This document shows, piece by piece, positions 10,140 through 59,400 of a DNA stretch of 64,000 bases. The stretch is from Macrostomum lignano (Eukaryota): assembly GCA_002269645.1 (NCBI GenBank), contig NIVC01000625.1, forward strand, positions 248,001-312,000. The letters run 5' to 3'. The notes under the pieces are model-generated. The model was not told the DNA's origin. It saw only the letters and a program-made list of their open reading frames with translations, and searched no databases. Position 1 is the stretch's first letter, and every line of letters begins with the position of its first letter. The position numbers were made by a program, and so were the translations under genes.

Positions 10140-13100
10140 TGTAACTATAATTTATTGTACGCACATCTGCGCCCCAGCCGCCCCGTCCCCCAATCATGTA
10201 TGTACGTTGCTATCGATTGCTCAGCCCCCTCGCCCCTCTATATAATATGCTTTTTGGCACTCTTGAATAATACACGTATCTCTCGGTTGCGCGTTCATTA
10301 CATGGCGTCGCAAGCTAGCTAGACTCAGAGCATGGACCTGAAGCCACCCGAAGAGTTGGAGACGGACTCCAACGAGTCTTGGAAACGCTGGCGACAGAGA
10401 TTTTTGATATACCTCAAGGCAACTGGAATTGTTGGCGAAGAGCGTCGAATAAATTTGTTTTTGCACCTGATCGGTGACAATGGCCTTGACATTTATAACA
10501 CCCTGGAGACAGAAATAGAAGAGGAAACAGCGCAGGGTGCAACGGCAAGGCGACCAATAGCTTTTGACGAGTTGCTGGAGCTATTCGATGAGCACTTCAG
10601 TCCGCGTACGAGCGAAGTCTTCGAGCGTTTTAAGTTCTGGAAACGCGACCAGAAGGAGTCTGAGCCAGTCGACCTGTTTGTGACTGATTTGAAACGTCTG
10701 GCTGGAACGTGCAATTTCGAAACACAAAAAGAGAAAATGATTCGAGACAAGATTGTCCTGGGGTGCAACGACTCACGAATGCGAGAGCGGCTACTTCAAG
10801 AACCGGACTTGGACCTGAGAACGGCAATTGACATGTGCAGAGCTGCAGAGTCCGCGCGACATCAGCTAAAGGAAGTCGAGAAAGGCCTAAACGTCGTAAG
10901 GTTGTCACCCGCTCCGGCAGCGCCTCGGCAGCAACAAATCCGCAACTCAGGGCGCCCAGTGTCGAGTACAGCGGCCCAGTCGACGGCGCAGGGCCAACCT
11001 GGCCAAAGTTCGAACCCGAGTCAACTTCAGGGACGCCTTCCTGGAGAAAGTCGCTGTCACAACTGCGGTTACAGTCATCGTGATGGCAAGTGTCCGGCTT
11101 TTGGTAAGCGGTGTCTGTCCTGTGGCCGTCTGAACCACTTTCGCAGTCAATGTCGAAGCAACAATAACCGGAGGGTTATGACTGTAACAGCAGCTGAAGG
11201 TGAGGATGCTAGTGCTGGTGAAGAAGTGTATTTTATCGGAACGCTGCAGACTGATAATGGTTCCAGTTGGTTAGCAGAAGTTCAGCTTCCAGATGGTAAA
11301 AAGCTGCAATGCAAGCTAGACACCGGAGCAGAGGTGAGCGTGTTGCCAGCAGATTATTTCCCAGTCGGTGAGCAGTTGCTAAAAACTCACACTGTGTTGA
11401 CGGCTTTTGGAGGAGCTCGCATTCCTGTCGTTGGAAAGTGTCGTTTGAAGGTCAAGGTGCAGGGTCGGCCGTGCGAGATAGAGTTTATGGTTTCAGAGGT
11501 GCAACAAGCAATCCTTGGTTTACCAGCGCTGAAGGATCTGGACCTAATTCGAAGAGTTGAAAGCGTTAGACAGCCACCGGTGATTGACGAAAAGTTCGTG
11601 CTAGAGGAATTCAGTGACCTGTTTGACGACAAACTTGGCTGTTTGCCTTACGTGCACTCGTTTACTCTCGATGAACATGCTGTTCCTGTCGTCAATGCTC
11701 CGAGAAAGATTCCCTTTGCGCTGCAAGGCAAAGTTCAGGAGGAGTTAAAGCGCATGGAGGCCCTCGGAGTCATTGTTAAAGTTTCTGAGCCAACGGATTG
11801 GGTAAACTCTTTGGTTACTGTACACAAGCCAGATGGCAGCCTGCGACTGTGTATCGATCCGACACATCTCAACAAAGCTATCAAGCGCGCTCACTACCCG
11901 ATGACAACAGTCGAGCAAGTTGTTGCGCGCATTCCAGGTGCCAAGTACTTCACCGTGCTGGATGCAAAGACTGGTTTTTGGCAGATAAGACTTGACGAAG
12001 AAAGTACACAGCTCTGTACTTTCAACACTCCGTGGGGCAGATACAAATTTGTTCGCCTGCCCCAGGAACTATTGATGCACCGGAAGTCTACCAACGTGAG
12101 CTAAGCAAAATTTTCAGCAGCTGGGCTGAGGTAATTGTTGATGATATGCTTGTCTGGGGACGGACCCGCGAAGAGCACGATCAGAAGCTACTCAAGGTGC
12201 TCAGTGAGGCCCGTCAGTCGAATTTAAAGCTAAATCGCAAGAAATTGAAAGTTGGTGTTTCTTCAGTAAACCATGTTGGTCACGTGATCTCATCTGACGG
12301 TGTTCGTCCAGATCCTGCTAAAGTAAAAGCCATTCAAGAGCTTCCGGTTCCAGGTGATAAGCAGGCAGTGATGCGGCTGCTTGGCATGGCAACCTACCTG
12401 GGCAAGTTTATTCCGAATGCGTCGGACATCACTGAACCTCTTCGTGCCCTGCTCAAGAAGGAGGTGCTTTTTGACTGGCAAGAGAAGCAGCAGCAAGCTT
12501 TTGAGAAGCTAAAAGATGTTCTGTCGGACGCTCCTGTGCTAAGGTTGTTTGACGCCGATATGGAAGTTGAGCTTCAAGTTGACAGTTCATCGGTCGGAGT
12601 TGGTTGCGTTTTGCTGCAGAATGGACAGCCTGTGGCGTATGGATCGGCTGTGCTGACCAACACGCAAAAGAACTATGCTCAGATTGAGAAGGAGACTCTG
12701 GCCGTTGTTATTGCTTGCAAGAAATTTCATGACTACATCTATGGCCTTCCAGTATAGTATTTGTCATGCTATCTCAGCCTAGAGACATCCAAACTCAGCC
12801 AGCCCATCTCAACAGTGCGATTTTTTACGTAAGCCAGTCAAGTTTTACCATAGACATGCTTCTTAAGGCCATGCTATCTCAGCCTGGGACATGCATTGTC
12901 GGCTGATTCTCCATGCAGGAATGGCATTCTTGCACTCTTTTGCGTGCAGGAATGGATGTCTATGGTAAAATCTCACTGAAAAAGCATTAGGCGCAGAAAT
13001 GCATTCCTGCACGGTTTTGTGCATTCCTGCACGATGAATCATCCGACAATGGAATACCTTCACGTTCATTCATTGCTGTTTGTTGCCATTTCATGTCACG

Positions 13101-14361
13101 TTACAGAAATGATAGCATTGAGATCTGTTTGCAATTGAAATCTATATTGGCTGAGATTGCATGTCCCAGGCTGAGATAGCATGGCCTTAAGAAGCATGTC
13201 TATGGTAAAACTCGACTAGCTCGAGCCAAAAAACGCATTGCGGAATGATATATTCCTGCACGGTCACGAGTGCGGGAATGACATCTGCACGAGTGCGCGC
13301 TAGCGCACGAGTGCACGATGTCCTTCACGCACGAGTGAACGTGAAGGAATTCCATTGTCGGATGATTCATCGTGCAGGAATGCACAAAACCGTGCAGGAA
13401 TGCATTTCTGCGCCTAATGCTTTTTCAGTGAGATTTTACCATAGACATCCATTCCTGCACGCAAAAGAGTGCAAGAATGCCATTCTTGCATGGAAAATCA
13501 GCCGACAATGGGGCTGGCTGAGTTTGGATGTCCCTAGGCTGAGATAGCATGACAAAAGCTATAGTACGAGTGACTACAGACCACAAGCCCCTGGAGGTTA
13601 TTTTTAAGCGTGACTTGTTGCATGTTCCGCCACGCATTGCTCGAATGCTGTACCAACTCAAAAGATATAATCTGCGTGTATCCTGGGCACCGGGATCCAA
13701 GATGCTGATTGCCGATACGCTTTCAAGAGCTTACCTTCCGGAGGCCGAGGCTGCTCTAGACGACGAAATTGAGGTGGAGGTGCATCAAATGAGCAAGAGC
13801 CTCCCGATTTCCGCCATTCGTTTGCAAGAAATCCGAGACGAGACCCGCAAAGATTCGGACTTAAGTTCTGTAGCCCGGTTTGTTCTGAGTCTTCTGACGG
13901 GTTGGCCAAGCAACTTTCGGAACATTTGCCACTCTGTCCGTCCGTATTGGAGCTTCAAGGAGGACTTGACCTACAATGATGGCGTGCTGATGAAGTTGGA
14001 CCGCGTTATTGTTCCAGCATCGTTGCGGCAGAAGATTCTGCAAATTTTACACGAAGGTCATGCTGGCGCGGGCAAGACGGAGGCCCGAGCTCGTCAAATT
14101 CTGTACTGGCCAGGCATGTCAGCGGACATTAAGAACTTCGTGAAGAACTGCAGCACCTGTCAAACGTTTCAGCCGGCCAACCCAAAGGAACCGCTGTTGA
14201 ACCATCAGATTCCGAATGCACCATGGACCAAGGTTGGTTGTGATCTGCTGGACTTCAATGGTGACAAGTGGCTAGTCGTTACCTTTATCGAACTGGCAAA
14301 GTTAGGTCAACAATCTGGAGCTGACCTAGTGATTGCTCGAATTAAGTCGATGTTCGCCAGG
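10140..14361 (+). mobile_element. Ty3/Gypsy LTR retrotransposon (Mag-like), 3'-truncated, disrupted
   Basis: Putative 5' LTR (TGT at 10140 or 10156) ends ..TTACA at 10302, followed by PBS-like TGGCGTCG, then gag-pol. No 3' LTR is visible. Confidence 0.88.
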
Positions 14362-14364
14362 TAA
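10332..14364 (+). pseudogene. Gypsy gag-pro-RT-RNaseH-integrase polyprotein, broken
   Basis: Gag WKRWRQRFLIYL; two Cys/His knuckles (CHNCGYSH, CLSCGRLNHFRSQC); protease KLDTGAEV; RT LRLCID, LDAKTGFWQI, IVDD; RNase H YAQIEKETLAV..TDHKPL; integrase HEGHAG..CSTC, PWTKVGCDL. Frameshift near 12060-12075, insertion 12755-13561, truncation in the integrase core. Confidence 0.92.
12755..13561. mobile_element. 807-bp non-autonomous DNA transposon (MITE-like) with ~53-bp TIRs and internal inverted repeats
   Basis: TAGTATTTGTCATGCTATCTCAGCCTAGAGACATCCAAACTCAGCCAGCCC at the left end matches the reverse complement of the right end with 3 mismatches. Flanked by TA; removal restores the RNase H frame YGLPVVRVTTDHKPL. 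Confidence 0.85.
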
Positions 14365-30400: not shown

Positions 30401-33400
30401 GCGCCCTTAGTGATGAGCCAGAGGACGCCCATGGGGTCGGAGACCACAACCGACATCCGCCTGCGGTCTGAGTCGAACTCGAGCACGTGCAGCAGCTGAG
30501 GTGGGCGGGGATTAAAATTTCAGAGGTTACTACTAAGGGATTCCGAATGGCTTGATTTTGGAGGTGGGGTGGGTGTCAACCCTCCTCGCCTCTCATTGGC
30601 TGGCGCCCCGATCACTAGGTGATCGATACCCGTATCGATATCGGCGCTCGGCGCGCGCGCGCCGCAGGCGCGTGGCGCCAAGCGCCGCAGGCGCACCCTC
30701 CCGATATTAGATCCCAATAAATCAATCAGATCCCAAATCAATCAGATCCCAAATCAATCAGATCCCAAGCGCACCCTCCCGAGCCGCAGGCGTCCATGCA
30801 GCAGGCGCCCCTCCCCGCCGCACGCGCCCTCCCCCGACATGTATGCCGCAGGCGCCCTCCCGTCTCAGGCGCCCCTCCCGATATGTATGCGCACTCTCCC
30901 TATATGTACACCGATATGTATGCAGCAGGCGCCCCGAGTGTACACTCCCCCGATATGTGTGTACACCGATATGTAGTCATCGATACGGGCCTCTTCCCCT
31001 CTCTCACCTACATCTCAACTAGCGAAATCGAACCCAGGTCGCGCCCATACTAGGACACTACACGGTTGTGGGGTATAGGGAGCGAGAAGTTTCAACCCTA
31101 ACGCTGACGCAGCCCTGTACAGTGAGAGTGTACGGGCAGAGAGGGGTGGCGCGGACAGAGAACCAGCCACTAGGTTGTTATACTGTTGAAGCATAGGGAG
31201 CGAGAAGTTTTAACCCCGATGCTGACGCAGCCCTGTACACTGAGCGTGTACGGGCAGAGGGTGGGTGGAAAGAGATGTGAATAACACAGCCTGCTGCAGG
31301 AGCCGGATAGAGAGGCGCATGCTAGGACAGAGAGGTAGTGTGAGTCACACACACCCCACAGAGAAAGCCATACAGAGGATAGAGAGCTCCCTCCCCAGTT
31401 GCAGGGGACAGAGAGGCAGGCAGGGTATGCAGGGGCATGCGAACCGTCAAGGGGCCACGCGAGGATAGAGTGGAGGAGCAGAGATGTGTTTGGACAGAGA
31501 GCCAGCCACGTGTGCGTAGTGTGAGGGAACAGAAACATATGGAGCAGGAGGGAGATAGGAAGCAAACGCGCAGGGTAAGGGAGCCACACAGGGCGGTACA
31601 GTGAGACACGGGCAGGGGTGGAGCCGTGCGTGGACAGAGCTGAACGGCACGGTCAGCTGCAGGAATAGGATGATAGAGAGGCGCGGAGGGGGACAGAGAG
31701 CAGTGTGCAGGGGTAGGCAGCCACGCAGGCTGGGGAACAGAGAGGCGCGTGTCAGCCAGTTGCAGCCCGGGACAGAGAAGTATGAAGGGGGGCCTGGGAC
31801 AGAGTTCCGAGCAAGGCACAGAGGTAGGGTCCTGTAGCTATGTATAGGCAGGGAGCCACGCGAGGGCAGGACAGGGGAGCAGACATGCAAGTTGCATGCA
31901 AGGCCAGAGAGGTGTGCGCGGAGGGAGACAGAGAGCAGTGTGTAGGGGTAGGTAACAGCAAACTTTAGTAGCGGCGCGTGCGGGGACGGAGAAACCAGTC
32001 AGAGCATACAGAGACGTTACAGAGAGGTACACAAGCAGAGACCAAAGCGAGCAGAGCACATGTGTAGGGACAGAGACGTGAGGGAGAATCGACCAAAACA
32101 CGCTATGTATTTTCAAAAGTTGGTTTTAGTGCAACATGTTTAATAGTGGGTAGTATAATAGTATGTACATAGTAGGTATAATAGTAGTAATAATAGTAAG
32201 CATATTAGCCCAAAAGGTAGACTAAAACAGGCTAAACTGTGTGTACGCATCCTCATCACCCCACAAGCCCCCTCTCCCGCCAGACTCACTCTACCAAACC
32301 TGTATTGCTGCATGAAGGAAAATATAGTGTAAAAATACAGATCTTAACCGTCAGACCGCTGAAATCAGGGCACACTAGAGGGGGTTTCGGGGTCTGCATG
32401 CTCTATGTAAGCTGCTTGAGGAGGTTCCAAGGGCGTTGTGAGGGTTTCAATTATGTTTTGAAAAAACTAGAGGCTTAAATACAACGTTTTATTCAAAAGT
32501 AGGTTATTTTAATGAAATAGCTGACACAATCATTGTCGAGAGTAGAAATTTTTATAAGAAACCAGGCATTTTAGCAAAAATAAACCTTCAAACCACATAA
32601 AATTGAATAAAAAGCAGACATTTTCAATTATAAACCGCAAGTATTTTAATAGAAAAGTAAGCAAACAAGGCACAAAACCAGCAAATTTTACCTTTTTATT
32701 TTAATGTTACTGATAAGGTAGAGAGTAGAAACTTGTGAGCTGTACGGAGTTAGAAAGTATTAACCATTATGTATCGTATGAATTATTAGTTCAGTACCAG
32801 CCATTGGTCAAGCGAGCATTTATGAAGTTATTACGAGTGATGAAGGGATAGAGAGCTATATACAGGAAGACAGTATCCTTCTAAACCACCACGAACAGAT
32901 TGCTAATAGAGATAAGCTTTGTCTGTGTGCAGTATGAGTAAGCGAAGGCGGGGCAAATACTTTTCCACATGCCGGACAGAACAGTATTGTGCTAGGATTT
33001 CTCTCGAAATCGCGGTACGTTACTAGTTTTTATCACACCATCCAGATGCGTCAACTAGTCAGCAGTAGTCATTTATATGTTATTAGAACTTACAAACCCA
33101 GGTCAAGTAAATATTACAAAGAGTATATTACGTACACACACCAACTACGAATACCAAGCCATACTAGTCTACTTGCAGTGCTCCTGGAGGGAAGGGACGG
33201 CGGGGTGTACATCCGGCAGGGTGGGCGTCCAGCGAGTGTACATCTGACAGGATGGGTGTTCAGCAAGTGTACATCTGACAGGGTGGGCGTTCAGCAAGTG
33301 TACCTTCAGCGTCGAGTAGGTGTACACCCGTCAGTGGGAACTCAGCCCCTCCCACCAATGTCGTGTGCATGCGGTTAGTCAGTATAGTGGTGGGGTAGAC

Positions 33401-35175
33401 GGTGCAGGAAGGAAACCCAGATGCTGACGCTGCCCTGTACAGCGAGCAACCAGCCCTCCTGTAGCAGGAGGGGGACAGAGAGTGCGTGGAGGCAGTAGGA
33501 GATAGAGGACGCTACCCGGCATGTCGCAGCACGCGGCGCGGGACAGAGAGGCAGTGTGTAAGTCACCCCCACAGGGAGAGCTGCCCTGGCAGGAGGCGCG
33601 GGACAGAGAGGCGGTGAATCACACCCCACGGAGAGAGCCGTACAGCGAGCTTCCCCACCCGAGTCCGGTAAATATTACAGAGTATTACGTGCACACGCCA
33701 GCCCTGAATACCAAGCCATACTAGTCTACCTGCAGTGCTCCCAGAGGGAAGGGATGGTCAGGAGTTACACACCAAGAATGCATTCATACAAAGAGTACAC
33801 AACTCGAGCCCAGACACCAAGTCACAGTCTACTTACAGTAGAGATGGTAGATTAATAGCAAGATTATATTACAATTAGACCTCCCTAGCACATGAGGAGT
33901 GAAATTCAATAATAATTGAATTCAATAATAATACAACATTTAGACGTAGTAATTTAATTACAAAATACCACTAACACTGAGCCAACGAATTGTAGGTTAC
34001 AAAGGAGTTGCCACTCATATGGAAAGCCAGTATAATGCAGGTGTATATTATTAAAACATAGACAAAAACGATGCAGACGTATATACACACTATTGATTTT
34101 GTACATGTACATTTCGGCATATTACCACACATCGCAGGCACATATTATATATCGGGGGATAGGTTAAAATACACACATCGTAGATGTAGAAGCAGACACA
34201 ATGCAGGAAAATTATGATACGAGTGTACATATTAGTGCGTAAAAGTATCATATTATGACACCCTGTAGCACATATTGACATAATGCAGGGGAAAATATTG
34301 ACAGAAATAGTACACAATTGTAGAGGTAACAACCCGCCAACTAGTAAGGACATCCAGCACTTGTTCAGGTTTTTATTATTTCGAGACGAGTGTCATGCCC
34401 CGCAAGAGATCTTATCAGAAATTTGTTGAACTCCACTGCAACTCTCCCCAGAGCCTCCAAATGTGAGTTTTTAACCCAGGGTCGAGTACAAAGGACCCGC
34501 CCACTCTTAACCCCAAGGGGTGATCGTAGCGGAGACCAAGTACAGTGCGGACGGAGAGGGGTAACAGAAAGCGCTGCATCAGACCGCAGGGCTGCATTCC
34601 TCCCCGAGGTAGGCGCGTCAGCTCCCACTCCTCATTTAACCATCAAGTAAACTAAAGAAGTCAAGCAGAAAGCCTTACAATCACCCGCAACCAGCACAAG
34701 TAAGAGTACTTTCCACTAGAGAGCCATAGTGCAAGATTCGCGAGCCAAGTTGAAGAAGCACACCAAATTACACTAAAGACATATGTATTAAAAAGCATAC
34801 CGGCACCTCTACAAAAACACAGTATGTACCGATTAAAGTTGCTTTTGGTGCAGTGTATTTAATAAAAAGCAGGTACCTAACACAAAAGTAGGCATCAATG
34901 CAGTGCACGGACTAAACTGTATTTACAAACGCAGGGCAACGAACTACACACAATGTAGCGCATAGACATAATTGTACGCATAAATGTACGCAATTTCCGG
35001 TATATAGGACCACATGTTCGCAAATGTACACAATGTACACAAACAAACACACACACACACAAACACAAACACAAACACACACACACTCAGGCGTATCCTG
35101 CAGAGCGCATCCTGCAGCGCCGATCGCCGCAGGCGATGGCGCCATCGGCAGGAAGCTCTTGCTGTGAATACGCCT

Positions 35176-35256
<81 letters not shown>

Positions 35257-38200
35257 TTTGTGTACATTGTGTACATTTGCGAACATGTGGTCCTATATAC
35301 CGGAAATTGCGTACATTTATGCGTACAATTATGTCTATGCGCTACATTGTGTGTAGTTCGTTGCCCTGCGTTTGTAAATACAGTTTAGTCCGTGCACTGC
35401 ATTGATGCCTACTTTTGTGTTAGGTACCTGCTTTTTATTAAATACACTGCACCAAAAGCAACTTTAATCGGTACATACTGTGTTTTTGTAGAGGTGCCGG
35501 TATGCTTTTTAATACATATGTCTTTAGTGTAATTTGGTGTGCTTCTTCAACTTGGCTCGCGAATCTTGCACTATGGCTCTCTAGTGGAAAGTACTCTTAC
35601 TTGTGCTGGTTGCGGGTGATTGTAAGGCTTTCTGCTTGACTTCTTTAGTTTACTTGATGGTTAAATGAGGAGTGGGAGCTGACGCGCCTACCTCGGGGAG
35701 GAATGCAGCCCTGCGGTCTGATGCAGCGCTTTCTGTTACCCCTCTCCGTCCGCACTGTACTTGGTCTCCGCTACGATCACCCCTTGGGGTTAAGAGTGGG
35801 CGGGTCCTTTGTACTCGACCCTGGGTTAAAAACTCACATTTGGAGGCTCTGGGGAGAGTTGCAGTGGAGTTCAACAAATTTCTGATAAGATCTCTTGCGG
35901 GGGCATGACACTCGTCTCGAAATAATAAAAACCTGAACAAGTGCTGGATGTCCTTACTAGTTGGCGGGTTGTTACCTCTACAATTGTGTACTATTTCTGT
36001 CAATATTTTCCCCTGCATTATGTCAATATGTGCTACAGGGTGTCATAATATGATACTTTTACGCACTAATATGTACACTCGTATCATAATTTTCCTGCAT
36101 TGTGTCTGCTTCTACATCTACGATGTGTGTATTTTAACCTATCCCCCGATATATAATATGTGCCTGCGATGTGTGGTAATATGCCGAAATGTACATGTAC
36201 AAAATCAATAGTGTGTATATACGTCTGCATCGTTTTTGTCTATGTTTTAATAATATACACCTGCATTATACTGGCTTTCCATATGAGTGGCAACTCCTTT
36301 GTAACCTACAATTCGTTGGCTCAGTGTTAGTGGTATTTTGTAATTAAATTACTACGTCTAAATGTTGTATTATTATTGAATTCAATTATTATTGAATTTC
36401 ACTCCTCATGTGCTAGGGAGGTCTAATTGTAATATAATCTTGCTATTAATCTACCATCTCTACTGTAAGTAGACTGTGACTTGGTGTCTGGGCTCGAGTT
36501 GTGTACTCTTTGTATGAATGCATTCTTGGTGTGTAACTCCTGACCATCCCTTCCCTCTGGGAGCACTGCAGGTAGACTAGTATGGCTTGGTATTCAGGGC
36601 TGGCGTGTGCACGTAATACTCTGTAATATTTACCGGACTCGGGTGGGGAAGCTCGCTGTACGGCTCTCTCCGTGGGGTGTGATTCACCGCCTCTCTGTCC
36701 CGCGCCTCCTGCCAGGGCAGCTCTCCCTGTGGGGGTGACTTACACACTGCCTCTCTGTCCCGCGCCGCGTGCTGCGACATGCCGGGTAGCGTCCTCTATC
36801 TCCTACTGCCTCCACGCACTCTCTGTCCCCCTCCTGCTACAGGAGGGCTGGTTGCTCGCTGTACAGGGCAGCGTCAGCATCTGGGTTTCCTTCCTGCACC
36901 GTCTACCCCACCACTATACTGACTAACCGCATGCACACGACATTGGTGGGAGGGGCTGAGTTCCCACTGACGGGTGTACACCTACTCGACGCTGAAGGTA
37001 CACTTGCTGAACGCCCACCCTGTCAGATGTACACTTGCTGAACACCCATCCTGTCAGATGTACACTCGCTGGACGCCCACCCTGCCGGATGTACACCCCG
37101 CCGTCCCTTCCCTCCAGGAGCACTGCAAGTAGACTAGTATGGCTTGGTATTCGTAGTTGGTGTGTGTACGTAATATACTCTTTGTAATATTTACTTGACC
37201 TGGGTTTGTAAGTTCTAATAACATATAAATGACTACTGCTGACTAGTTGACGCATCTGGATGGTGTGATAAAAACTAGTAACGTACCGCGATTTCGAGAG
37301 AAATCCTAGCACAATACTGTTCTGTCCGGCATGTGGAAAAGTATTTGCCCCGCCTTCGCTTACTCATACTGCACACAGACAAAGCTTATCTCTATTAGCA
37401 ATCTGTTCGTGGTGGTTTAGAAGGATACTGTCTTCCTGTATATAGCTCTCTATCCCTTCATCACTCGTAATAACTTCATAAATGCTCGCTTGACCAATGG
37501 CTGGTACTGAACTAATAATTCATACGATACATAATGGTTAATACTTTCTAACTCCGTACAGCTCACAAGTTTCTACTCTCTACCTTATCAGTAACATTAA
37601 AATAAAAAGGTAAAATTTGCTGGTTTTGTGCCTTGTTTGCTTACTTTTCTATTAAAATACTTGCGGTTTATAATTGAAAATGTCTGCTTTTTATTCAATT
37701 TTATGTGGTTTGAAGGTTTATTTTTGCTAAAATGCCTGGTTTCTTATAAAAATTTCTACTCTCGACAATGATTGTGTCAGCTATTTCATTAAAATAACCT
37801 ACTTTTGAATAAAACGTTGTATTTAAGCCTCTAGTTTTTTCAAAACATAATTGAAACCCTCACAACGCCCTTGGAACCTCCTCAAGCAGCTTACATAGAG
37901 CATGCAGACCCCGAAACCCCCTCTAGTGTGCCCTGATTTCAGCGGTCTGACGGTTAAGATCTGTATTTTTACACTATATTTTCCTTCATGCAGCAATACA
38001 GGTTTGGTAGAGTGAGTCTGGCGGGAGAGGGGGCTTGTGGGGTGATGAGGATGCGTACACACAGTTTAGCCTGTTTTAGTCTACCTTTTGGGCTAATATG
38101 CTTACTATTATTACTACTATTATACCTACTATGTACATACTATTATACTACCCACTATTAAACATGTTGCACTAAAACCAACTTTTGAAAATACATAGCG

Positions 38201-41200
38201 TGTTTTGGTCGATTCTCCCTCACGTCTCTGTCCCTACACATGTGCTCTGCTCGCTTTGGTCTCTGCTTGTGTACCTCTCTGTAACGTCTCTGTATGCTCT
38301 GACTGGTTTCTCCGTCCCCGCACGCGCCGCTACTAAAGTTTGCTGTTACCTACCCCTACACACTGCTCTCTGTCTCCCTCCGCGCACACCTCTCTGGCCT
38401 TGCATGCAACTTGCATGTCTGCTCCCCTGTCCTGCCCTCGCGTGGCTCCCTGCCTATACATAGCTACAGGACCCTACCTCTGTGCCTTGCTCGGAACTCT
38501 GTCCCAGGCCCCCCTTCATACTTCTCTGTCCCGGGCTGCAACTGGCTGACACGCGCCTCTCTGTTCCCCAGCCTGCGTGGCTGCCTACCCCTGCACACTG
38601 CTCTCTGTCCCCCTCCGCGCCTCTCTATCATCCTATTCCTGCAGCTGACCGTGCCGTTCAGCTCTGTCCACGCACGGCTCCACCCCTGCCCGTGTCTCAC
38701 TGTACCGCCCTGTGTGGCTCCCTTACCCTGCGCGTTTGCTTCCTATCTCCCTCCTGCTCCATATGTTTCTGTTCCCTCACACTACGCACACGTGGCTGGC
38801 TCTCTGTCCAAACACATCTCTGCTCCTCCACTCTATCCTCGCGTGGCCCCTTGACGGTTCGCATGCCCCTGCATACCCTGCCTGCCTCTCTGTCCCCTGC
38901 AACTGGGGAGGGAGCTCTCTATCCTCTGTATGGCTTTCTCTGTGGGGTGTGTGTGACTCACACTACCTCTCTGTCCTAGCATGCGCCTCTCTATCCGGCT
39001 CCTGCAGCAGGCTGTGTTATTCACATCTCTTTCCACCCACCCTCTGCCCGTACACGCTCAGTGTACAGGGCTGCGTCAGCATCGGGGTTAAAACTTCTCG
39101 CTCCCTATGCTTCAACAGTATAACAACCTAGTGGCTGGTTCTCTGTCCGCGCCACCCCTCTCTGCCCGTACACTCTCACTGTACAGGGCTGCGTCAGCGT
39201 TAGGGTTGAAACTTCTCGCTCCCTATACCCCACAACCGTGTAGTGTCCTAGTATGGGCGCGACCTGGGTTCGATTTCGCTAGTTGAGATGTAGGTGAGAG
39301 AGGGGAAGAGGCCCGTATCGATGACTACATATCGGTGTACACACATATCGGGGGAGTGTACACTCGGGGCGCCTGCTGCATACATATCGGTGTACATATA
39401 GGGAGAGTGCGCATACATATCGGGAGGGGCGCCTGAGACGGGGAGGGCGCCTGCGGCATACATGTCGGGGAGGGCGCGTGCGGCGGGGAGGGGCGCCTGC
39501 TGCATGGACGCCTGCGGCTCGGGAGGGTGCGCTTGGGATCTGATTGATTTGGGATCTGATTGATTTGGGATCTGATTGATTTGGGATCTGATTGATTTAT
39601 TGGGATCTAATATCGGGAGGGTGCGCCTGCGGCGCTTGGCGCCACGCGCCTGCGGCGCGCGCGCGCCGAGCGCCGATATCGATACGGGTATCGATCACCT
39701 AGTGATCGGGGCGCCAGCCAATGAGAGGCGAGGAGGGTTGACACCCACCCCACCTCCAAAATCAAGCCATTCGGAATCCCTTAGTAGTGAGGTTCCCAGA
39801 AATTCTTTGCCCCTCCTAGCAACTAGCAACCAATGTCTTTACCAGAGCAACTATACTATCCCAGCAGCCAATGCATTCTAGCTAGCAACAAATCTTTAAT
39901 CGCCTAGCAACCAATTTGCTCATCTAGCAACTAGACATTATGCCTTTGCCTAGGAACCAAATCCTTTCGTCTAGCACCCAAATCCTTTCGCCTAGTAACC
40001 AAATCATTTTGTCTAACAATCAAATTCTTTTCTTAATAACAACCATAAACTTCGACTAGCAACCAGATCTTTTTTGCCTAGCAACCAAATCCTTTTGCCT
40101 AGCAACCAAACCGTTTCACCTAACAACTAAATAATTCTGCATAGCAACTAAACCCTTTAATCTAGCAACCAAATCCTTTCGCCTAGCAACCAAATCATTT
40201 CGCCTAGCAACCAAATCATTTCGCCTAGCAACAAAATTCTGATCACCTGGTAGTCCAGGCTGCGACCTCCGACCCCAACCGTCAGCTGGTTGCCCGTCCT
40301 GCCGCGGAAGGTGACGCCCAGCTTCCGGCAGCCGTCCAGCAGCGCCTTCTCGTCCGGTGAGCTGGCGTGGTAAACCAGGCGGCCGCTGTTGCCCGACCGC
40401 TCGGCCCGGGCCGTGTGGCAGAGGGCCAGGTGGGTGAGGAACTCCTGCTGCGCCGGCCCCAGCTGCTGCTTGCTGTTGTGGCTGGCCAGCAGGGAGCTGC
40501 CCTTCAGCGAGTACTTCACGCCGTTGATGGAGCAGCCGCGGAAGGTCATGATGTTCTCCGTGAGGGTGCCGGTCTTGTCGCAGAACAGGTGGTCGACGAC
40601 GCCGAGCTCCTCAATGATTTCGGACGTGTTGGCCTTCGCCCAGTTGCTCGGGTCGTCGTCCGACATCCGGTGGAACATCTCGAGGTCGTGATCGATGAAC
40701 ATGGAGCAGAAGAACTTCTGCACCTCGATGGTGACCAGCATGGAGATGGGGATGATGTAGTGCATGATAATGAGCGCGTTCAGCGTCTCCTGGAAGTTCG
40801 GGCGCTTGAGCTGCTCGCCGGGCAGGAACCAGGCCTTGCTGATGGCGTCGGAGCGGGCAATGAGCAGGTTGCCCGCCACCAGCACGCAGGTGAGCAGCAG
40901 CAGCAGGCCGATCAGCACCAGCATGAAGCTGTTGAGTCTGGTGTCCACCACCGATCGCTTGGCCCGCGACCCCCTGGAGTTGAGGCCAACCTTCGTCTCC
41001 GAGCCGGTGTACAGCGCCAGGCCGTAGGCGAAGTTGGTGTTGCGGAGCACCGCGCCGCGCAGCAGGACATTGCTGGCGTTCAGCGGGATGGAGGAGTGCG
41101 CCTGCGGCTTCACCAGCTGCAGCACGCCAGCGAAGCTGTAGAGGTCGGGCTTGGGCTGCTCGCAGACCACCTTGCCCAGCAGTTCGGAGCATAGCAGCCC

Positions 41201-49193: not shown

Positions 49194-51830
49194 TCAAGCG
49201 GACTTGGACCAGACAAGGCGGTGCTGCCCGGCGCCCAGTAGCAGCGGCTCGGTGCTCCAGCCTGCCTTTGACAGCGCGCCCAGAAAGTCCGGCATCAGCC
49301 GCTCGGCCGTGGCGGCAGCGGCCGCATCGCCAGCCCGAAGCTCGGAGCAGCCGCCGACGGCGTCAAACAGTTTCGGCCGGGTCCTGGCCAGGTGGATCAG
49401 CTCGCACTGGAAGACGGCCAGCAGCTGATCAGCGGAGGTCGCGTCCTCGGCCAGAACCACATAGTAGCTCGACGCTCCGGTGAAGACGGCGAGCCGCCGG
49501 TGCCGCTGCTGGCGAAGGCCGTCGACGAGGCGGTCGGCAGGCAGCGCGGCGGCAGGGGCGCTCAGTGGGCAGCCGAGGCGGAGCGGCGCGGCGCAGGAGC
49601 GGAGCAGCGGCTCGGACTGGTTCACCTCGGCGACCCCGGAGCAGGCGCGGCCGCCACTGGCCACGAAGCTGACAACCACCAGGTGAAGCCGGCTGGGGTT
49701 CAGCGTTTCCATGGCAACGGAGCGGACGGCGCGCCAATTAAAGTACAGGTGGCCAAAGGTGAACAGCAGGTAGGCGAGCACGGCTGCTCCGCCAGTGATG
49801 AGCGGCACGAAGGCCAAATTGAACAGCAGGGCGAACAGGTTCACCAGCGTCTCCTGGGATGAGTCCTTAGCCGACACGTCCGCCATGTTGTGCCTGCGCG
49901 CCTGGGGAGCGGGAGGGGACTTGGGTGAGCCCGCAGTTTACCTGGTCGATTTTTACGCTACATTAATTTACAGATTTATTCGCGATTCTCATCATAGGAT
50001 GAGGCGATTCTCATCAAGGGATCAGGCTATTCTCATCAGGGGATCAGGCGATTCTCATCAGGGGATCAGGTGATTCTCATCAGGGGATCAGGCGATTCTC
50101 ATCAGGGGATCAGGTGATTCTCATCAGGGGATCAGGCGATTCTCATCAGGGGATCAGGCGATTCTCATCAGGGGATCAGGTGATTCTCATCAGGGGATCA
50201 GATGATTCTCATCAGGGGATCAGGTGATTCTCATCAGGGGATCAGGTGATTTTCATCAGGGGATATGTGATTCTCATCAGGGGATCAGGTGATTCTCATC
50301 AGGGGATCAGGTGATTCTTATCAGGGGATCAGGTGATTATCGGGAATCGAGGAAAATGTGTCAATTTCTCCATCTGAGATCTTCAGTCATCAGAGCCAGC
50401 ACCCTGGGCGCACACCTGGTGCATCGTGAGCGCCGCCCTGGTGGCGCCGCCGCAAACTCCAACCAGCGACAGCAGCACGGAGGCGACGCACAGGACGGCA
50501 GCCACGGTAGGCGAGCCGGGCGGCCCGGCCAGCGGGCAGAGCAGCTGCATCAGGATGGCCAAGTCGTTCAGCACATCCGCCAGCAGCCGGTAGCGCTTGC
50601 AGTCCCAGTCCAGAGCGGTGCCGTACAGCCAGGCGAACAGGATGCGGCCCACCATGCCGCAGCCGTCGCGCAGCAGCCAGGCGAGGGTGGCGGCCGCCAC
50701 CGAGGCGCCCTGGTCGCCGACACCGTAGCCGGTCAGGACGGCCCGGCCGGCCAGGGCGCCTGTGACAGAGGAGCAGAAGGCCTGGGCGGTGTCCCACATC
50801 TGGTAGGTCAGGTAGTCCGCAGACACCGAGTCCGGGTAGCCCTGCGGCAGGAAGACGTCCTGAAGATCGGGATGAGGGAGAGACGAGGTTGCGCTCTGAT
50901 GACCTGGTGGATGGCAAGGATGGCTTGATCAGGTGGATTGGAATTAAGGCCAGAATTAGCTCAGTTGGGAATAGGGATCAGGGATTAGCTCGTGGAAGTT
51001 GGGATCAGAGGATTAGCTCAGGTGGAGATTGGGATCAGAGGATTAGCTCAGGTGGAGATTGGGATCAGAGGATTAGCTCAGGTGGAGATTGGGATTAGGG
51101 GATTAGCTCAGATGGAAACTGGGATCAGAGGATTTTTTCAGGTGGAAATTGGGATCAGAGGATTTGTTCAGGTGGAAACTGGGATCAGAGGATTTGTTCA
51201 GGTGGAAACTGGGATCAGAGGATTTGTTCAGGTGGAAACTGGGATCAGAGGATTAGTTTAGGTGGAAATTGGGATCAGAGGATTTGTTCAGGTGGAAATT
51301 GGGATCAGAGGATTTGTTCAGGTGGAAACTGGGATCAGAGGATTTGTTCAGGTGGAAATTGGGATCAGAGGATTAGTTCAGGTGGAAACTGGGATCAGAG
51401 GATTTGTTCAGGTGGAAACTGGGATCAGAGGATTTGTTCAGGTGGAAACTGGGATCAGAGGATTTGTTCAGGTGGAAACTGGGATCAGAGGATTTGTTCA
51501 GGTGGAAACTGGGATCAGAGGATTAGTTTAGGTGGAAATTGGGATCAGAGGATTAGCTCAGGCGGAAATTGGGATCAGAGGATTAGCTCAGAAATATATT
51601 AAGAACAGCGAACAGGGTATTAACTCAGGTAGAAACTGGAATCAGGGGATTCGGGGAAGAGCAGCCTACTACAAACAGCAATCTTAATCTCGTACCTTGG
51701 CGGTGCTAACAAAGCCGTCAAACTTTCGTTTTTTGCCTTTGATGAGCAACTTCTGCTGCGTGAGAACATATTCTGTTGCTTCACTGGAGCTGTCAGTAAC
51801 TTCCTTTAGTAACAGCGGCTCCGCAGTCAT
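49194..51830 (-). CDS. RUSF1: RUS family member 1 (C16orf58/DUF647-like), paralog B, 3 exons, 428 aa
   Basis: Exons 51830-51696, 50859-50416 and 49901-49194, all phase 0. DVFLPQGYPDSVSADYLTYQMWDTAQAFCSS, RLLADVLND, RAALTMHQ|ARRHNMADVSAKDSSQETLVNL, METLNPSRL. Confidence 0.92.
49985..50338. repeat. 22-bp minisatellite (GATTCTCATCAGGGGATCAGGT)
   Basis: RUSF1-B intron 2. Confidence 0.93.
50970..51592. repeat. 30-bp minisatellite (GGGATCAGAGGATTTGTTCAGGTGGAAACT)
   Basis: RUSF1-B intron 1. Confidence 0.95.
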
Positions 51831-53480: not shown

Positions 53481-56400
53481 TTAGAAGGACTTGGACCAGG
53501 TCAGGCGGTGCTGCCCGGCGCCCAGTAGCAGCGGCTCGGTGCTCCAGCCTGCCTTTGACAGCGCGCCCAGAAAGTCCGGCATCAGCCGCTCGGCCGTGGC
53601 GGCAGCGGCCGCATCGCCAGCCCGAAGCTCGGAGCAGCCGCCGACGGCGTCAAACAGTTTCGGCCGGGTCCTGGCCAGGTGGATCAGCTCGCACTGGAAG
53701 ACGGCCAGCAGCTGATCAGCGGAGGTCGCGTCCTCGGCCAGAACCGCATAGTAGCTCGACGCTCCGGTGAAGACGGCGAGCCGCCGGTGCCGCTGCTGGC
53801 GAAGGCCGTCGACGAGGCGGTCGGCAGGCAGCGCGGCGGCAGGGGCGCTCAGTGGGCAGCCGAGGCGGAGCGGCGCGGCGCAGGAGCGGAGCAGCGGCTC
53901 GGACTGGTTCACCTCGGCGACCCCGGAGCAGGCGCGGCCGCCACTGGCCACAAAGCTGACAACCACCAGGTGAAGCCGGCTGGGGTTCAGCGTTTCCATG
54001 GCAACGGAGCGGACAGCGCACCAATTGCCAAATATATGACCGGAGGTGAAAATGATGAAGACTGGGACGGCCACCGGGCCAGTGATGAGCGGCACGAAGG
54101 TCAGGTTGACTACCAGCCCCACCAGGTTCACCAGCGTCTCCTGGGATGCGTCCTTCGCCGACACGTCCGCCATGTTGTGCTGGCGGGCCTGGGGAATTGA
54201 GGAGACGAATCCGGAGATTAAAATTGAAGATTAAGATTGTAATTGTAGCAGGCTTGAACAATGCAATTTTTGACAATAACCTCTAAAGCCTGGTTCACAT
54301 TTCCGCAAATAGCTGACGCTCACAGCTAATAGCTGATTTTCAGAAATCTACTAGCTCAGCGCGACCACTACTAGCGGGTGCTACTATCGCCCTCAAATAG
54401 ATGCATCGCCATGCAGTTCAATTTAACCCGCGAAGATAATAGGCAATATTTGACCCTTGGCCACTGTTACGAGTATATAAAGTAATTCAGTCTAGTGCTA
54501 GCCCTATCTGTGCTTCGGACAGGGCGTTTTCAATCTAAGAAATCTTGACCAGAAAGCCGTGACCAGCTTTCAGATTTCAAACATGCTTTCACGAGCCAAG
54601 AAGCTACTGCTACTGGCAATCGTAACGATACTGCAACATCGTAGGCTGATCAGGCAAGGCCGCCGCCCTAGGCGATGGTGGCGGAGACCGAGTCATCAAC
54701 GAAGAGAAGAGCTTGGCGAGTTTGCCGGATTGATCCCACATCTGCGAGATAGAGACTCGGAGATGTACTTCAAGTATATGCGCATGCGCCCGGCTCGGTT
54801 TGAGCATCTGCTTTCACTGGTTGCAACCAAACTCTCCAGGCCATGTGCAAGAAGAGAGGCCGTTCCGGCAGAGGAGAAGCTAATGATGACGCTTTGCTAC
54901 CTGGCTTCGGGTTGCAGCCAAGCCGACTTGTCGTTTCGATTTGGCCGAGGACGCTCTACTGTGTCAGGGGTCGTTCGAGACTGCGATTGCCATCTACGAC
55001 AAGCTGGCGTCAACATATCTAAAGTTTCCTGCATCTGCAGAAGAATGGAAAGCAATCGCTGGTGGATTCTGGGAAAAGTGGCATTTTCCGAACTGCCTCG
55101 GTGCAATTGACGGCAAGCATTTCAAGGTTCATTGTCCAAGAAACACCGGCTCCCAGTACTTCAATTACAAGCAACAGTTCAGCTCACTGGTACTCGCCAT
55201 GTGCGACAGTAACTACATCTTCACGTACATAGAGAGTGGCAGCGCAGGGAGAGGAGACGCTGGAGTCTTCTCACGTTCAGCCTTGTACGCTGGATTGGAG
55301 TCTGGATCGGTGAAAGTCCCGGAGCCTTCCTGCATTTCTGGCAGCAGCCTCGTCATGCCATTTGCAATTGTCGGTGATGAGGCTTTCCCGCTGAAGAATT
55401 ATCTCATGCGCCCATTCCCTGGGCGCGGCGGAATGGTACCATTGGACTACAAGACGCAAGTGTTCAACTACCGGCTGTCTCGAGCAAGACGCACAATTGA
55501 GAATGCGTTTGGAATCCTGGTGACTCGCTAGCGACTCTTCCTGCGGCCTGTCATAGCGAGAATCGATCACGTTGAGGCCTTTATTCGGTGCGCATTCGTA
55601 CTGCATAACTTCATGCGAATAGAGGACGAGGCCAACATTACAGCAGCTCGGTCCTACATGCCACCTGGAAGTGTTGACCAGGAACTGCCCACCGGCCAGG
55701 TACAGGAGGGTTCATGGAGATCCACCGTGACAGGCAGCGTCGGGGTAATGCCAGCCCGGAATCTGGGTGGAAATCGAAGCAGCGCCTCCGCTCGGGAGCA
55801 ACAGATGCTGCTGAGGGACTTCTTCGTCAGCCCCAATGGTGCCATTCCATGGCAGAGCGCAATGATACATGTACCTACTGATGATAATCGATAATACTGT
55901 TGATGAATCATTAATTTATTCCGCATGTTTATTTCGCATACAGAACGTGAATTTATGAGCTAATTTTGTGGAAATTTCAAACAAGGCGGCGAGAAAGTAC
56001 AATGCTACAACAGAAAGTAATCCAAACTCGTAAATAAATTGACAAGACTGTGGAGACAATATTTTCAACATATTCATTTATGATTTCATTATATTTTCTG
56101 TCTCTCTCGATCTCTGCACTTGCTCTCTGACACGCACAATGCAATCTGGTCATGAAAAAGGAAAAAAGATTTGCTTCTAGTTTGCAAAATATTGCACTCT
56201 ATCGCTTTTATCTCACGCACTTCTAGGAGTCATTGGGAGGTGTGACCGTGGATATGATGGAGCCGAGCATGTCGTCGAAGGAAGCTGATCCAGCAGCGGC
56301 ATCAGCGGCAGGCTCAGTTCGGATGGCAACGCTTCGGGGCAGGCCGTGGAGTTGGATTGTGAACAACTCGCTCCGCAGGTGCGCCATGGCATAGTCGCGC

Positions 56401-59400
56401 TCAATTTGCGTTGGAAGCCGACGGATGGCCTGTCCAATTGCTTGGCCAAAGGAGGCATATTCGTCCTCATCTTTTGTCAGTTGCTGAGTCAACTGGCTGA
56501 GGGCAGTATCCAGCTTTGATGCTTCTGTTGCAGTTGCCTTTCTGGCCTTCTTTGGCGCACTTTCCGCAAACTCTCGCATTGACGCCTCACTGGGGTCAGT
56601 TGTTGCAGCCTGTGCCTCTGCTCGACTGGACTGTTGCGCCTCATCATTGACCGAGGTTGCCTGCTGAGAGGGTCCAGCAGATCCCACAGCTACAAGTTCT
56701 GGTGTGGGCGGAGGCACATTTGAGGTAGTATCGCCAATGTAGTCACACTTGTCCAGGAAGTTCATGCGACTGTATATTCCCAACCGCCTGGGAGTAGGCT
56801 TGACCGCACTCCCACTCGGAAGCTTGCTTCCACGCCGGAAAACAAACTAGTTACGCTTGAGACCTTGAAACCGCTTGAGGCACCAAGTTGAATCCTTGCC
56901 CAAAGTCTCAGCGATCTGATTCCATGCGCTGGTTTTCGCCTGCTGATCCTTGAATTTTCGGCTTGAGATGTTGTAGACAACTTCATGTTTGGCAACTTCA
57001 TCTATCAGAGTTGGATCCAACTCCGGAGTCTCGTGTGACAAGTCGGACATTTCCAGGTATCAAGTTGTGTGGAGTTTGGGGTGAAGAATAGAGCATGGTT
57101 CTATTCGTTTCATATAGCCTCCAGCTGTGCTCCTGTCTGGTTGCGCAAGAAATTGTCTGTACTCATTGTACAGTGAGCAGTGAGCAATGACACAATCGTT
57201 TAAATTTACTGTACGCCTACCCCTGCCATCCATGCTGCAGAAGCGGACAACTCAAAGCAAGGAGTTGTGAGTGTTTATGTGAATGGGGTGCATTTCGGTT
57301 TCGTTTGCCATGCATAAAATTGAAAGTTATATTGTCCTTTCTAGTTCTAATGAATAGAACCAAATAAAATCACTATTAGAGTCCGCCAGGAGCGGCGGAC
57401 TTTCGGATAGTAGAGCTGCGCACGGATAGTAGCGTTCGCAATCAGCTGGTAGCGGCGGCGAACAGCTATTAGTTTGAAGCACGGAGCTATTTGCGGAAAT
57501 GTGAACCAGGCTTAAGATGTTAAATCGTGTTGAAGAATTCTCAAGCCGATGCCTCCCACCATTCGCTGACATCGCAGGCACCCTACCGGCTCCTGTTTTA
57601 CAATAATTGTATCTAACTGACAGCGTATTTAACAGACTGGCCGACACCCCCGGGAGGCTTGAGTTCCTTCCTTGGCCTTAGGCTGCTAACTCTAATTCCC
57701 CACCCAGTTATCGACCATGGGACACGAAACCGCCACGACACCTCGACGCGACATCTCGTGAATGTCCCTGTGAAACCCATTGGCTACGGACACACCTGGT
57801 GCATAGTAAACACACCTGATGCATAGTAAACACACCTGGTGCATAGTAAACACACCTGGTGCATAGTAAACACACCTGATGCATAGTAAACACACCTGGT
57901 GCATAGTAAACACACCTGATGTATAGTAAACACACCTGGTGCATAGTAAACACACCTGGTGCATAGTAAACACACCTGATGCATAGTAAACACACCTGGT
58001 GCATAGTAAACACACCTGGTGCATAGTAAACACACCTGATGTATAGTAAACACACCTGGTGCATAGTAAACACACCTGTTGCATAGTAAACACACCTGGT
58101 GCATAGTAAACACACCTGGTGCATAGTAAACACACCTGGTGCATAGTAAACACACCTGGTGCATAGTAAACACACCTGGTGCATAGTAAACACACCTGGT
58201 GCATAGTAAACACACCTGGTGCATAGTAAACACACCTGGTGCATAGTAAACACACTTGATGTATAGTAAACACACCTGGTGCATAGTAAACACACCTGGT
58301 GCATAGTAAACACACCTGGTGCATGGTAAACACACCTGGTGCATAGTAAACACACCTGGTGCATAGTAAACACACCTGGTGCATAGTAAACACACCTGGT
58401 GCATAGTAAACACACCTGATGCATAGTAAACACACCTGGTGCATAGTAAACACACCTGATGTATAGTAAACACACCTGGTGCATAGTAAACACACCTGGT
58501 GCATAGTAAACACACCTGATGCATAGTAAACACACCTGGTGCATAGTAAACACACCTGATGCATAGTAAACACATCTGATGCATAGTAAACACACCTGGT
58601 GCATAGTAAACACACCTGATGCATAGTAAACACACCTGGTGCATAGTAAACACACCTGGTGCATAGTAAACACACCTGGTGCATAGTAAACACACTTGAT
58701 GTATAGTAAACACACCTGGTGCATAGTAAACACACCTGGTGCACAGTAAACACACCTGGTGCATAGTAAACACACCTGATGCATAGTAAACACACCTGAT
58801 GCATAGTAAACACACCTGGTGCATAGTAAACACACCTGATGCATAGTAAACACACCTGGTGCATAGTAAACACACCTGGTGCATAGTAAACACACCTGGT
58901 GCATAGTAAACGCGGCTCTGGTGGCGCCGCCGCAGACGGTGACCAGCGCTAGCGTCACGGAGGCGATGCACAGGACGGCGACTACAGCGGGCGAGCCGGG
59001 CGGCCCGGCCAGCGGGCAGAGCAGCTGTATCAGGATGGCCAAGTCGTTCAGCACATCCGCCAGCAGCCGGTAGCGCTTGCAGTCCCAGTCCAGAGCGGTG
59101 CCATACAGCCAGGCGAACAGGATGCGGCCCACCATGCCGCAGCCGTCGCGCAGCAGCCAGGCGAGGGTGGCGGCCGCCACCGATGCGCCCTGGTCGCCGA
59201 CACCGTAGCCGGTCAGGACGGCCCGGCTGGCCAGGGCGCTGGTAAGGGAGCTGCAGAAGGCCTGGGCGGTGTCCCAAATCTGGTAGGTCAGGTAGTCAGC
59301 GGACACCGAGTCCGGGTAGCCCTGCGGCAGGAAGACGTCCTGCGGCGGGGTTACGGGAATTGGCTTGAGCTTGTTGTGGAACGCTGCTGAGATTTGGTGC

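What the first reader, a model, noticed from the sequence alone, without database searches (positions are those of the whole stretch)
30523..30560. Termini ACTACT...AGTAGT plus a 6-bp TSD point to a Polinton/Maverick-like parent
Seen: the element starts ACTACTAAGGG and ends CCCTTAGTAGT, a 3-nt tandem repeat at the extreme end. Established: Polintons/Mavericks make 6-bp TSDs with a retroviral-like integrase and have long TIRs starting with short tandem repeats (often AGTAGT); adenovirus ends start CATCAT; such repeats serve slide-back initiation in protein-primed replication. Here the triplet is ACT rather than AGT. Inference: a gene-less copy-back derivative (analogous to defective-interfering genomes) of a Polinton-like element with an unusual terminus, retaining two copies of one end.
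Basis: partly seen in the sequence, partly recalled or inferred. Interest (0 to 1): 0.78.

Follow-up and report, generated by a model that had tools for sequence, protein, structure and literature searches.

The report
Gene-less palindromic transposon, Polinton-like ends
A 9.3-kb mobile DNA element with no genes, built as one near-perfect mirror-image palindrome, has recently inserted into an intron of a flatworm gene; its footprint points to a parasite of virus-like Polinton transposons with an end motif not seen in the papers checked, but its helper was not found.

Summary
Window 30529-39788 (9260 bp) starts ACTACT, ends AGTAGT and sits between two GAGGTT copies; no other cut gives both a perfect terminal inverted repeat and a target duplication. 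The element is one palindrome: about 4.57-kb arms with 0 substitutions in 4507 aligned bases and a 71-nt centre. It lies in a flippase intron of Macrostomum lignano. It is multi-copy (arm contigs 13-32 times flank depth), with subfamilies, and one run seems to carry the empty site. No coding relic was found by six tests. A Polinton-type helper is the best explanation (about 0.6): 6-bp duplication plus a doubled 3-nt end. But the triplet is not a published Maverick motif, only one junction pair could be read, and no helper was located. The 'copy-back of one parental end' idea fails in its simple form, because 4.5 kb behind an end holds no Polinton gene. It is an established non-coding family whose two arms stay identical to each other while copies diverge. 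Rivals: cut-and-paste foldbacks with 6-bp duplications, or a CACTA/Chapaev-type element.

The parts
30523..30528 (+). Left copy of the 6-bp target-site duplication GAGGTT
   Evidence: a 966-nt contig of run X1 matches the flank up to exactly 30528 and then leaves the stretch
30529..39788 (.). Whole element, 9260 bp, near-perfect palindrome, no genes found
   Evidence: coding tests
30529..30534 (+). Terminal doubled triplet (ACT)2, candidate slide-back initiation motif
   Evidence: sequence; role inferred from PMC8097293 discussion
30529..35096 (+). Left arm, about 4.57 kb, ending in a CA-type microsatellite and a 12-nt stem
30658..30694 (+). Two CGCC-GCA-GGCG triloop mini-hairpins (30658-30672, 30682-30694) in a GC-rich sub-terminal repeat zone that varies between copies
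   Evidence: joints at 30601-30892
31153..33609 (+). Ten copies of the word GGACAGAGA on one strand of the arm (none in the window outside the element), plus short internal duplications (31075-31268; 33096-33200 with 33657-33757)
35097..35167 (.). Unique 71-nt centre; holds the same CGCC-GCA-GGCG triloop hairpin (35123-35137)
   Evidence: this bin is covered well above flank depth in 4 of 4 runs (rough split)
35168..39788 (-). Right arm, mirror of the left arm; differs by one 16-nt repeat unit, three 1-nt indels in C runs and the microsatellite
39783..39788 (-). Right terminal doubled triplet (reads ACTACT on the minus strand)
39789..39794 (+). Right copy of the 6-bp target-site duplication GAGGTT
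30496..40246 (-). Host intron (GT...AG) of a P-type ATPase, flippase-like by my reading; 485 nt without the element; the duplication lies 28-33 nt upstream of the acceptor
   Evidence: a contig of run X9 joins the two exons

Best explanation
A young copy of a non-autonomous, fully palindromic satellite family that is mobilised in trans by a Polinton/Maverick-type element of the same flatworm. Shown: ends, 6-bp duplication, palindrome, lack of genes, many copies. Inferred: a retroviral-like integrase made the 6-bp staggered cut; a protein-primed polymerase starts at the doubled triplet and displaces one strand; because the element is self-complementary, that strand snaps back into a 4.6-kb hairpin duplex with a ready-made double-stranded origin, and copying through the hairpin regenerates the full palindrome, so that each arm is templated by the other. 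This keeps the arms of one copy identical while copies drift apart.
For: 6-bp duplication with perfect ends is the only clean parse; 6 bp is the Polinton value (PMC10045372; PMC8097293). A 1-3-bp terminal tandem repeat is the Polinton signature (PMC4196379), and AC-starting ends exist. The other 6-bp families read about end differently: IS3EU/GingerRoot TA..TA. Family status: single-contig depth on the arm is 13 (X1), 24-32 (X7) and 19-26 (X16) times the flank. Recency: run X1 has an unbroken contig across the site whose length would end at 40206 if it is the empty allele, inside a tandem array, as its other end is. Concerted arms: at 5 of the 40 listed variant sites (136 in all, 96 not shown) every contig of all four runs differs from the window, yet both window arms carry the same window letter. 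Same-strand triloop hairpins near the end and at the centre: 4 found against a mean of 0.28 and a maximum of 3 in 500 shuffles, none on the other strand of the arm.
Against: No pPolB, integrase, ATPase or capsid gene was linked to this end; no Polinton protein of this species turned up, and three papers (two on the species, one adintovirus survey) did not link one to it in the text searched. Only one junction pair was read. (ACT)2 is not among the three published vertebrate motifs. A second subfamily end seen once (run X9; 8 of 10 letters in register, p about 7e-4) reads ACCACT, which is not a perfect doubled triplet and is preceded by C; the window's right end is also preceded by C on the minus strand, which gives a CACTA-like reading. 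Arm-to-arm identity can also come from gene conversion in cut-and-paste foldbacks (recalled) or from assembly polishing. The letters of the presumed empty-site contig beyond 30528 were not shown.
Confidence: 0.6

Rival explanations
1. A giant foldback derivative of a cut-and-paste DDE transposon that makes 6-bp duplications (hAT6, IS3EU/GingerRoot, or an unnamed superfamily). The TIRs grew until the middle was lost; repeated words in the arm are transposase binding sites.
For: The foldback build arises independently in several superfamilies (PMC4079207). hAT6 and IS3EU make 6-bp duplications (PMC12730594). Ten same-strand GGACAGAGA words and rearranged sub-terminal repeats resemble foldback TIR modules.
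Against: IS3EU/GingerRoot end TA..TA, sometimes TG..CA; Ginger ends TGTNR with 4-5-bp duplications; most foldbacks are Mutator-type, and Tetris has 8-10-bp duplications. None of these explains the doubled triplet. hAT6 ends could not be looked up.
Confidence: 0.22
2. A CMCT-clade (CACTA/EnSpm, Chapaev) foldback whose true ends lie one base further out: CACTACT on the right, TACTACT on the left, with a 4-bp duplication AGGT.
For: The shift -1 parse gives a 4-bp duplication and the same empty site. CMCT elements have CA..TG ends and 2-5-bp duplications. The one variant end seen in run X9 is also preceded by C.
Against: It needs a substitution at the very terminal base of a copy whose arms show 0 substitutions in 4507 bases, and the changed base and the base before the duplication must both happen to extend the repeat to 6 bp.
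Confidence: 0.08
3. The palindrome is an assembly artefact (a fold-back read or a mis-joined repeat), and the real insertion is a single arm or two ordinary elements.
For: No listed contig spans the stretch, and only one half was laid. Some 1-nt arm differences look like homopolymer errors.
Against: The flanks are not mirrored: exons of one gene continue in order on both sides and are spliced together. The duplication brackets the whole. The unique centre bin is covered far above flank depth in independent runs.
Confidence: 0.04
4. A recent copy-back (defective-interfering-like) product of one end of an autonomous Polinton, rather than an established family.
For: Two copies of one end, identical arms, Polinton-like footprint.
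Against: 4.5 kb without any coding trace, against TIRs of at most about 1.5 kb in described elements; many copies and subfamilies down to about 90% identity.
Confidence: 0.06

Closest known systems
Polinton/Maverick elements (PMC8097293, passages and discussion part 1; 10.1101/2023.08.22.554363, passages; PMC4196379, passages)
   Same: 6-bp target duplication; terminal inverted repeats; short tandem repeat at the extreme end; AC...GT ends occur in the swamp-eel type.
   Different: No pPolB, integrase, ATPase, protease or capsid gene; 9.3 kb against 13-25 kb; arms of 4.57 kb against TIRs of 46-1500 bp, leaving only 71 unique bases; (ACT)2 is not one of the published motifs.
Foldback transposons (Drosophila FB, Tetris; PMC4079207, passages; Galileo, search listing only)
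   Same: Non-coding, very long inverted arms with internal repeats and rearranged variants.
   Different: Tetris has 8-10-bp duplications and most foldbacks are assigned to Mutator; here 6 bp and a doubled triplet end.
IS3EU/GingerRoot and hAT6 (PMC10045372, PMC12730594, passages)
   Same: 6-bp target duplication, TIRs.
   Different: IS3EU/GingerRoot end TA..TA; hAT6 ends not checked; no giant palindromic forms in the passages read.
Snap-back defective genomes and self-complementary parvoviral genomes (recalled, no call)
   Same: Self-complementary genome with both ends from one terminus; depends on a helper.
   Different: This element is chromosomally integrated with a target duplication and is inherited as a family; no free form was shown.
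Giant palindromic Maverick satellites of 11-15 kb reported by other agents of this scan in other genomes (unchecked AI notes)
   Same: Gene-poor or gene-less palindrome with Maverick-type ends; one title names a 6-bp duplication.
   Different: Those notes report Mavericks in the same genome and in some cases a small gene; none matched the word ACTACT. I did not test their claims.

Membership tests
Polinton/Maverick | 6-bp target-site duplication | tested here: met
   one locus only; empty allele inferred
Polinton/Maverick | Terminal inverted repeats | tested here: met
   4.57 kb, about three times the longest described
Polinton/Maverick | 1-3-bp tandem repeat at the extreme end | tested here: met
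   (ACT)2; chance 1.9%; one variant end is imperfect
Polinton/Maverick | One of the published end motifs (AGT)2, (AG)3, (AC)3A | tested here: not met
Polinton/Maverick | Encodes pPolB and a retroviral-like integrase (autonomous members) | tested here: not met
   nothing in six frames; so it is not an autonomous member
Polinton/Maverick (non-autonomous) | Shares duplication length and terminal positions 1-11 with an autonomous member (Repbase rule, PMC4455052) | not testable with these tools
CMCT clade (CACTA/EnSpm, Chapaev, Transib) | 5'-CA..TG-3' ends with a 2-5-bp duplication | tested here: not met
   needs a mismatched left end; the right end alone fits
IS3EU/GingerRoot | TA..TA ends with a 6-bp duplication | tested here: not met
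   duplication fits, ends do not
hAT6 | 6-bp duplication | tested here: met
hAT6 | hAT-type terminal sequence or a linked hAT transposase | not testable with these tools
   no hAT6 end sequences in the passages read; no transposase in the element
Mutator-type foldback | 8-10-bp duplication | tested here: not met
Ginger1/Ginger2 | TGTNR ends, 4-5-bp duplication | tested here: not met

The most novel reading that the evidence does not exclude
This is one member of an undescribed class of self-complementary satellites of animal Polintons: gene-less, about 10-kb palindromes whose displaced strand folds into a hairpin-ended duplex, is copied by the helper's protein-primed polymerase and is inserted by its integrase. 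The same triloop hairpin marks the end region and the turning point, and (ACT)2 would be a new Polinton end type. Each integrated copy would also be a ready-made source of long double-stranded RNA, perhaps already edited in vivo.
Probability: 0.35. Interest if true: 0.75.

Novelty: new variant of a known kind. Interest (0 to 1): 0.52.

Why it matters
Polinton replication has been modelled from sequence, through a single-stranded racket-like intermediate started at a terminal tandem repeat (PMC4196379, passage). A multi-copy, insertion-polymorphic, gene-less palindrome shows which cis signals may be enough (ends, hairpins) and predicts a hairpin intermediate that can be looked for in a laboratory flatworm with transgenesis. 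It would add a new end motif and a satellite layer to the Polinton world. A 4.6-kb perfect inverted repeat inside an intron is also a natural test of how the host handles long double-stranded RNA and fragile palindromes. If the helper proves to be an ordinary DDE transposase, the element is a large foldback of modest interest.

Tried and rejected
Terminal patterns in viral contigs: 2 exact 17-mer hits, both without further likeness, so chance; longer or degenerate patterns 0 hits. Metagenome contigs: 0 hits in 2 scans. Coding tests on one arm: Pfam 0 families in 6 of 6 frames; PHROGs 0 in 6 of 6; tblastn of 57 pPolB-family proteins against the window, best E 0.30 and none in the element among the 6 rows; longest frames no longer than in 300 block shuffles; phmmer of one 198-residue read-through stretch against 1.84 billion proteins, 0 hits; Atlas best score 0.81 for one 146-aa frame. 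Rfam: one sub-threshold match, mir-3149 on the microsatellite hairpin, 53.7 bits against a cut-off of 100, rejected. Search for a helper polymerase of this species through a phage polymerase and a Polinton-like polymerase: 42 and 3 hits, none named from this species; these searches are too narrow to show absence. 39 viral loci reached with a polymerase alignment showed no such end; the one blastn hit to the arm is a 38-nt low-complexity stretch. No RNA holder is on record; run X9 is RNA by guess and by its spliced contig, and its depth along the arm follows the DNA profile (Spearman 0.67), so DNA carry-over cannot be excluded and expression is not claimed. Exact look-ups of a window protein found nothing. 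Look-ups in earlier findings by sequence, genome, relatives and one word set were empty. The ACTACT hit in PMC12945077 is a primer; the one in PMC4722103 was not opened.

Full report
Observation. The element runs from 30529 to 39788 (9260 bp), starts ACTACTAAGGG, ends CCCTTAGTAGT and is bracketed by GAGGTT at 30523-30528 and 39789-39794. Of 7 symmetric cut positions, only this one gives a perfect terminal inverted repeat together with a flanking direct repeat. One base further out a 4-bp repeat remains, but the ends then read T and C, a mismatch. A doubled triplet or tripled doublet in the first six bases is expected in 76 of 4096 hexamers.

Anatomy. The element is a single palindrome. The arms show 0 substitutions in 4507 aligned bases outside the central microsatellite; they differ by one 16-nt repeat unit and three 1-nt indels in C runs. 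Two of those indels are resolved in favour of the right arm by contigs of all four runs (table 4), so they are probably base-calling errors. The unique centre is 71 nt (35097-35167). It folds with its flanking stem at z = -8.0 against 200 shuffles and contains a CGCC-GCA-GGCG triloop hairpin that also occurs twice near the end. Four such C-GNA-G hairpins with a stem of at least 4 lie on one strand of the half element and none on the other; 500 shuffles gave a mean of 0.28 and at most 3, and the remaining 54.7 kb of the window hold 5. That GNA triloops are unusually stable in single-stranded DNA is recalled, not tested. The arm also carries ten same-strand GGACAGAGA words, absent from the rest of the window, and short internal duplications.

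Host and site. A gene in the window is 100% identical over 520 residues to a Macrostomum lignano protein. The element sits in a GT...AG intron (30496-40246, minus strand) of a P-type ATPase, flippase-like by my reading of its motifs. The duplication lies 28-33 nt upstream of the acceptor; the intron is 485 nt without the element. A contig of run X9 joins the two exons.

No genes. Pfam and PHROGs found nothing in 6 of 6 frames of one arm with stops read as X. 57 pPolB-family proteins gave no tblastn hit in the element. The longest frames match block shuffles. One 198-residue read-through stretch had 0 hits among 1.84 billion proteins, and one 146-aa frame scored at most 0.81 in the Atlas.

A family, and a young copy. 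20 of 24 listed runs, from 7 studies of one organism, hold more than half of the sampled words; I laid 4 of them, on the left flank, left arm and centre only. All are contigs, so depth is rough. Single-contig depth on the inner arm is 13 times the flank in X1, 24-32 in X7 and 19-26 in X16, which would be about 6-16 palindromes per copy of this locus. The outer 1.5 kb are deeper and show many rearrangement joints; rarer contigs at about 90% identity show subfamilies. The bin that holds the centre averages 142 in X1 against a flank of 24, and 1203 in X7 against 74, so other copies seem to share the centre. In X1 a 966-nt contig follows the flank to exactly 30528 and goes on for 412 letters off the stretch; as an empty allele it would end at 40206, inside a tandem array, and its other end at 29975 also lies in one. 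Its further letters were not displayed, so the empty site is inferred. At 5 of the 40 listed variant sites (96 more not shown) all contigs of all four runs differ from the window, while both window arms carry the window's letter. So the arms of this copy are closer to each other than to the common type. Polishing could contribute to this, and contigs drop rare variants.

Against the simple reading. The loose-end table was cut (24 rows shown, 307 not), so no second junction pair could be read. One loose end in X9 lies in register with the terminus, agrees at 8 of 10 letters (p about 7e-4) and reads ACCACT, preceded by C. It shows a second end type that is not a perfect doubled triplet. With the window's right end, also preceded by C on the minus strand, it keeps a CACTA/Chapaev reading alive; CMCT elements have CA..TG ends and 2-5-bp duplications (PMC12730594, passages). 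That reading needs a substitution at the terminal base of an otherwise substitution-free copy, so I give it 0.08.

Mechanism. Shown: ends, duplication, palindrome, no genes, many copies. From the literature: Polintons make 6-bp duplications (PMC10045372, passages), carry a 1-3-bp terminal tandem repeat and are thought to replicate through a single-stranded racket-like form (PMC4196379, passages). Vertebrate end motifs are (AGT)2, (AG)3 and (AC)3A, are linked to jumping-back initiation, and TIRs run 46-1447 bp (PMC8097293, passages and discussion part 1; similar ranges in 10.1101/2023.08.22.554363, passages). Inferred: a helper's integrase inserts the element; its protein-primed polymerase starts at (ACT)2; the displaced strand snaps back into a 4.6-kb hairpin with a duplex origin; copying through the centre restores the palindrome, so that each arm is templated by the other. 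I put this at 0.6. A cut-and-paste foldback with 6-bp duplications stands at 0.22: foldbacks arise in many superfamilies (PMC4079207, passages), but IS3EU/GingerRoot end TA..TA and Ginger TGTNR, and hAT6 ends could not be checked.

Membership. It works like a non-autonomous Polinton by footprint. It is not an autonomous Polinton (genes tested, not found). PMC12801592 and PMC5730564 (term search of the main text; for the latter also 3 supplementary files) do not mention Polinton or Maverick, and PMC8502044 does not mention the species in its main text; its supplements and those of the other papers were not seen and may bear on this.

Novelty. My searches for palindromic or non-autonomous Polintons and for this end motif (listings, plus passages of PMC6431247, PMC11414722, PMC3014272 and PMC12945077) showed no description of giant palindromic Polinton satellites or of an (ACT)2 end. 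The library lacks subscription journals and Repbase, where non-autonomous Polintons may be catalogued. Other agents of this scan report 11-15-kb palindromic elements with Maverick ends in other genomes. These notes are unchecked and are leads only, but if right they make this a recurring class and this copy a new variant with its own end motif.

Verdict. A real, well-defined, recently inserted, gene-less palindromic transposon family. Polinton-type mobilisation is likely but unproven. Interest 0.52; new variant of a known kind.

Noticed in passing
window 32913, 34031, 34033: T>C changes seen only in the RNA-like run X9 (2, 6 and 11 contigs) and in none of the three other runs; on the minus strand all three A's have a 5' U (background 36%). 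Run X9 lists 22 T>C places against 6-9 in the others. Could be A-to-I editing of fold-back RNA, or strain variants; needs DNA of the same strain.
   Followed up: partly
window 30556 (loose end in run X9): A second end type in register with the terminus, ACCACT instead of ACTACT, with a different following 17 nt; it may belong to another subfamily or to the helper.
   Followed up: partly
window 10323-14364, with an insertion at about 12753-13563: A Gypsy-like retrotransposon (RVT_1, Integrase_H2C2) whose pol frame is split by an 810-bp foldback insertion with nested inverted repeats; its duplication length is ambiguous.
   Followed up: partly
window 54287-57512: Harbinger-like DNA transposon: inverted ends with 29 identical bases, TAA on both sides, a DDE_Tnp_4 transposase frame on the plus strand and a second frame on the minus strand without a Pfam match.
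   Followed up: partly
window 49194-50928, 53481-54230, 57708-59417: Repeated pieces of an RUS1/UVB-sensitivity-family gene (PF04884, PF24160 for the 53481-54227 piece): the same two exon types recur, suggesting a local tandem duplication.
   Followed up: no
whole window: Introns and intergenic DNA are full of long minisatellites with units of 13-54 nt, including arrays in both introns next to the insertion.
   Followed up: no
window 32662-33201 and 31354-33625: Contigs with internal deletions of 538 nt (runs X1, X7, X16) and 2270 nt (X16) show shorter relatives of the element.
   Followed up: no
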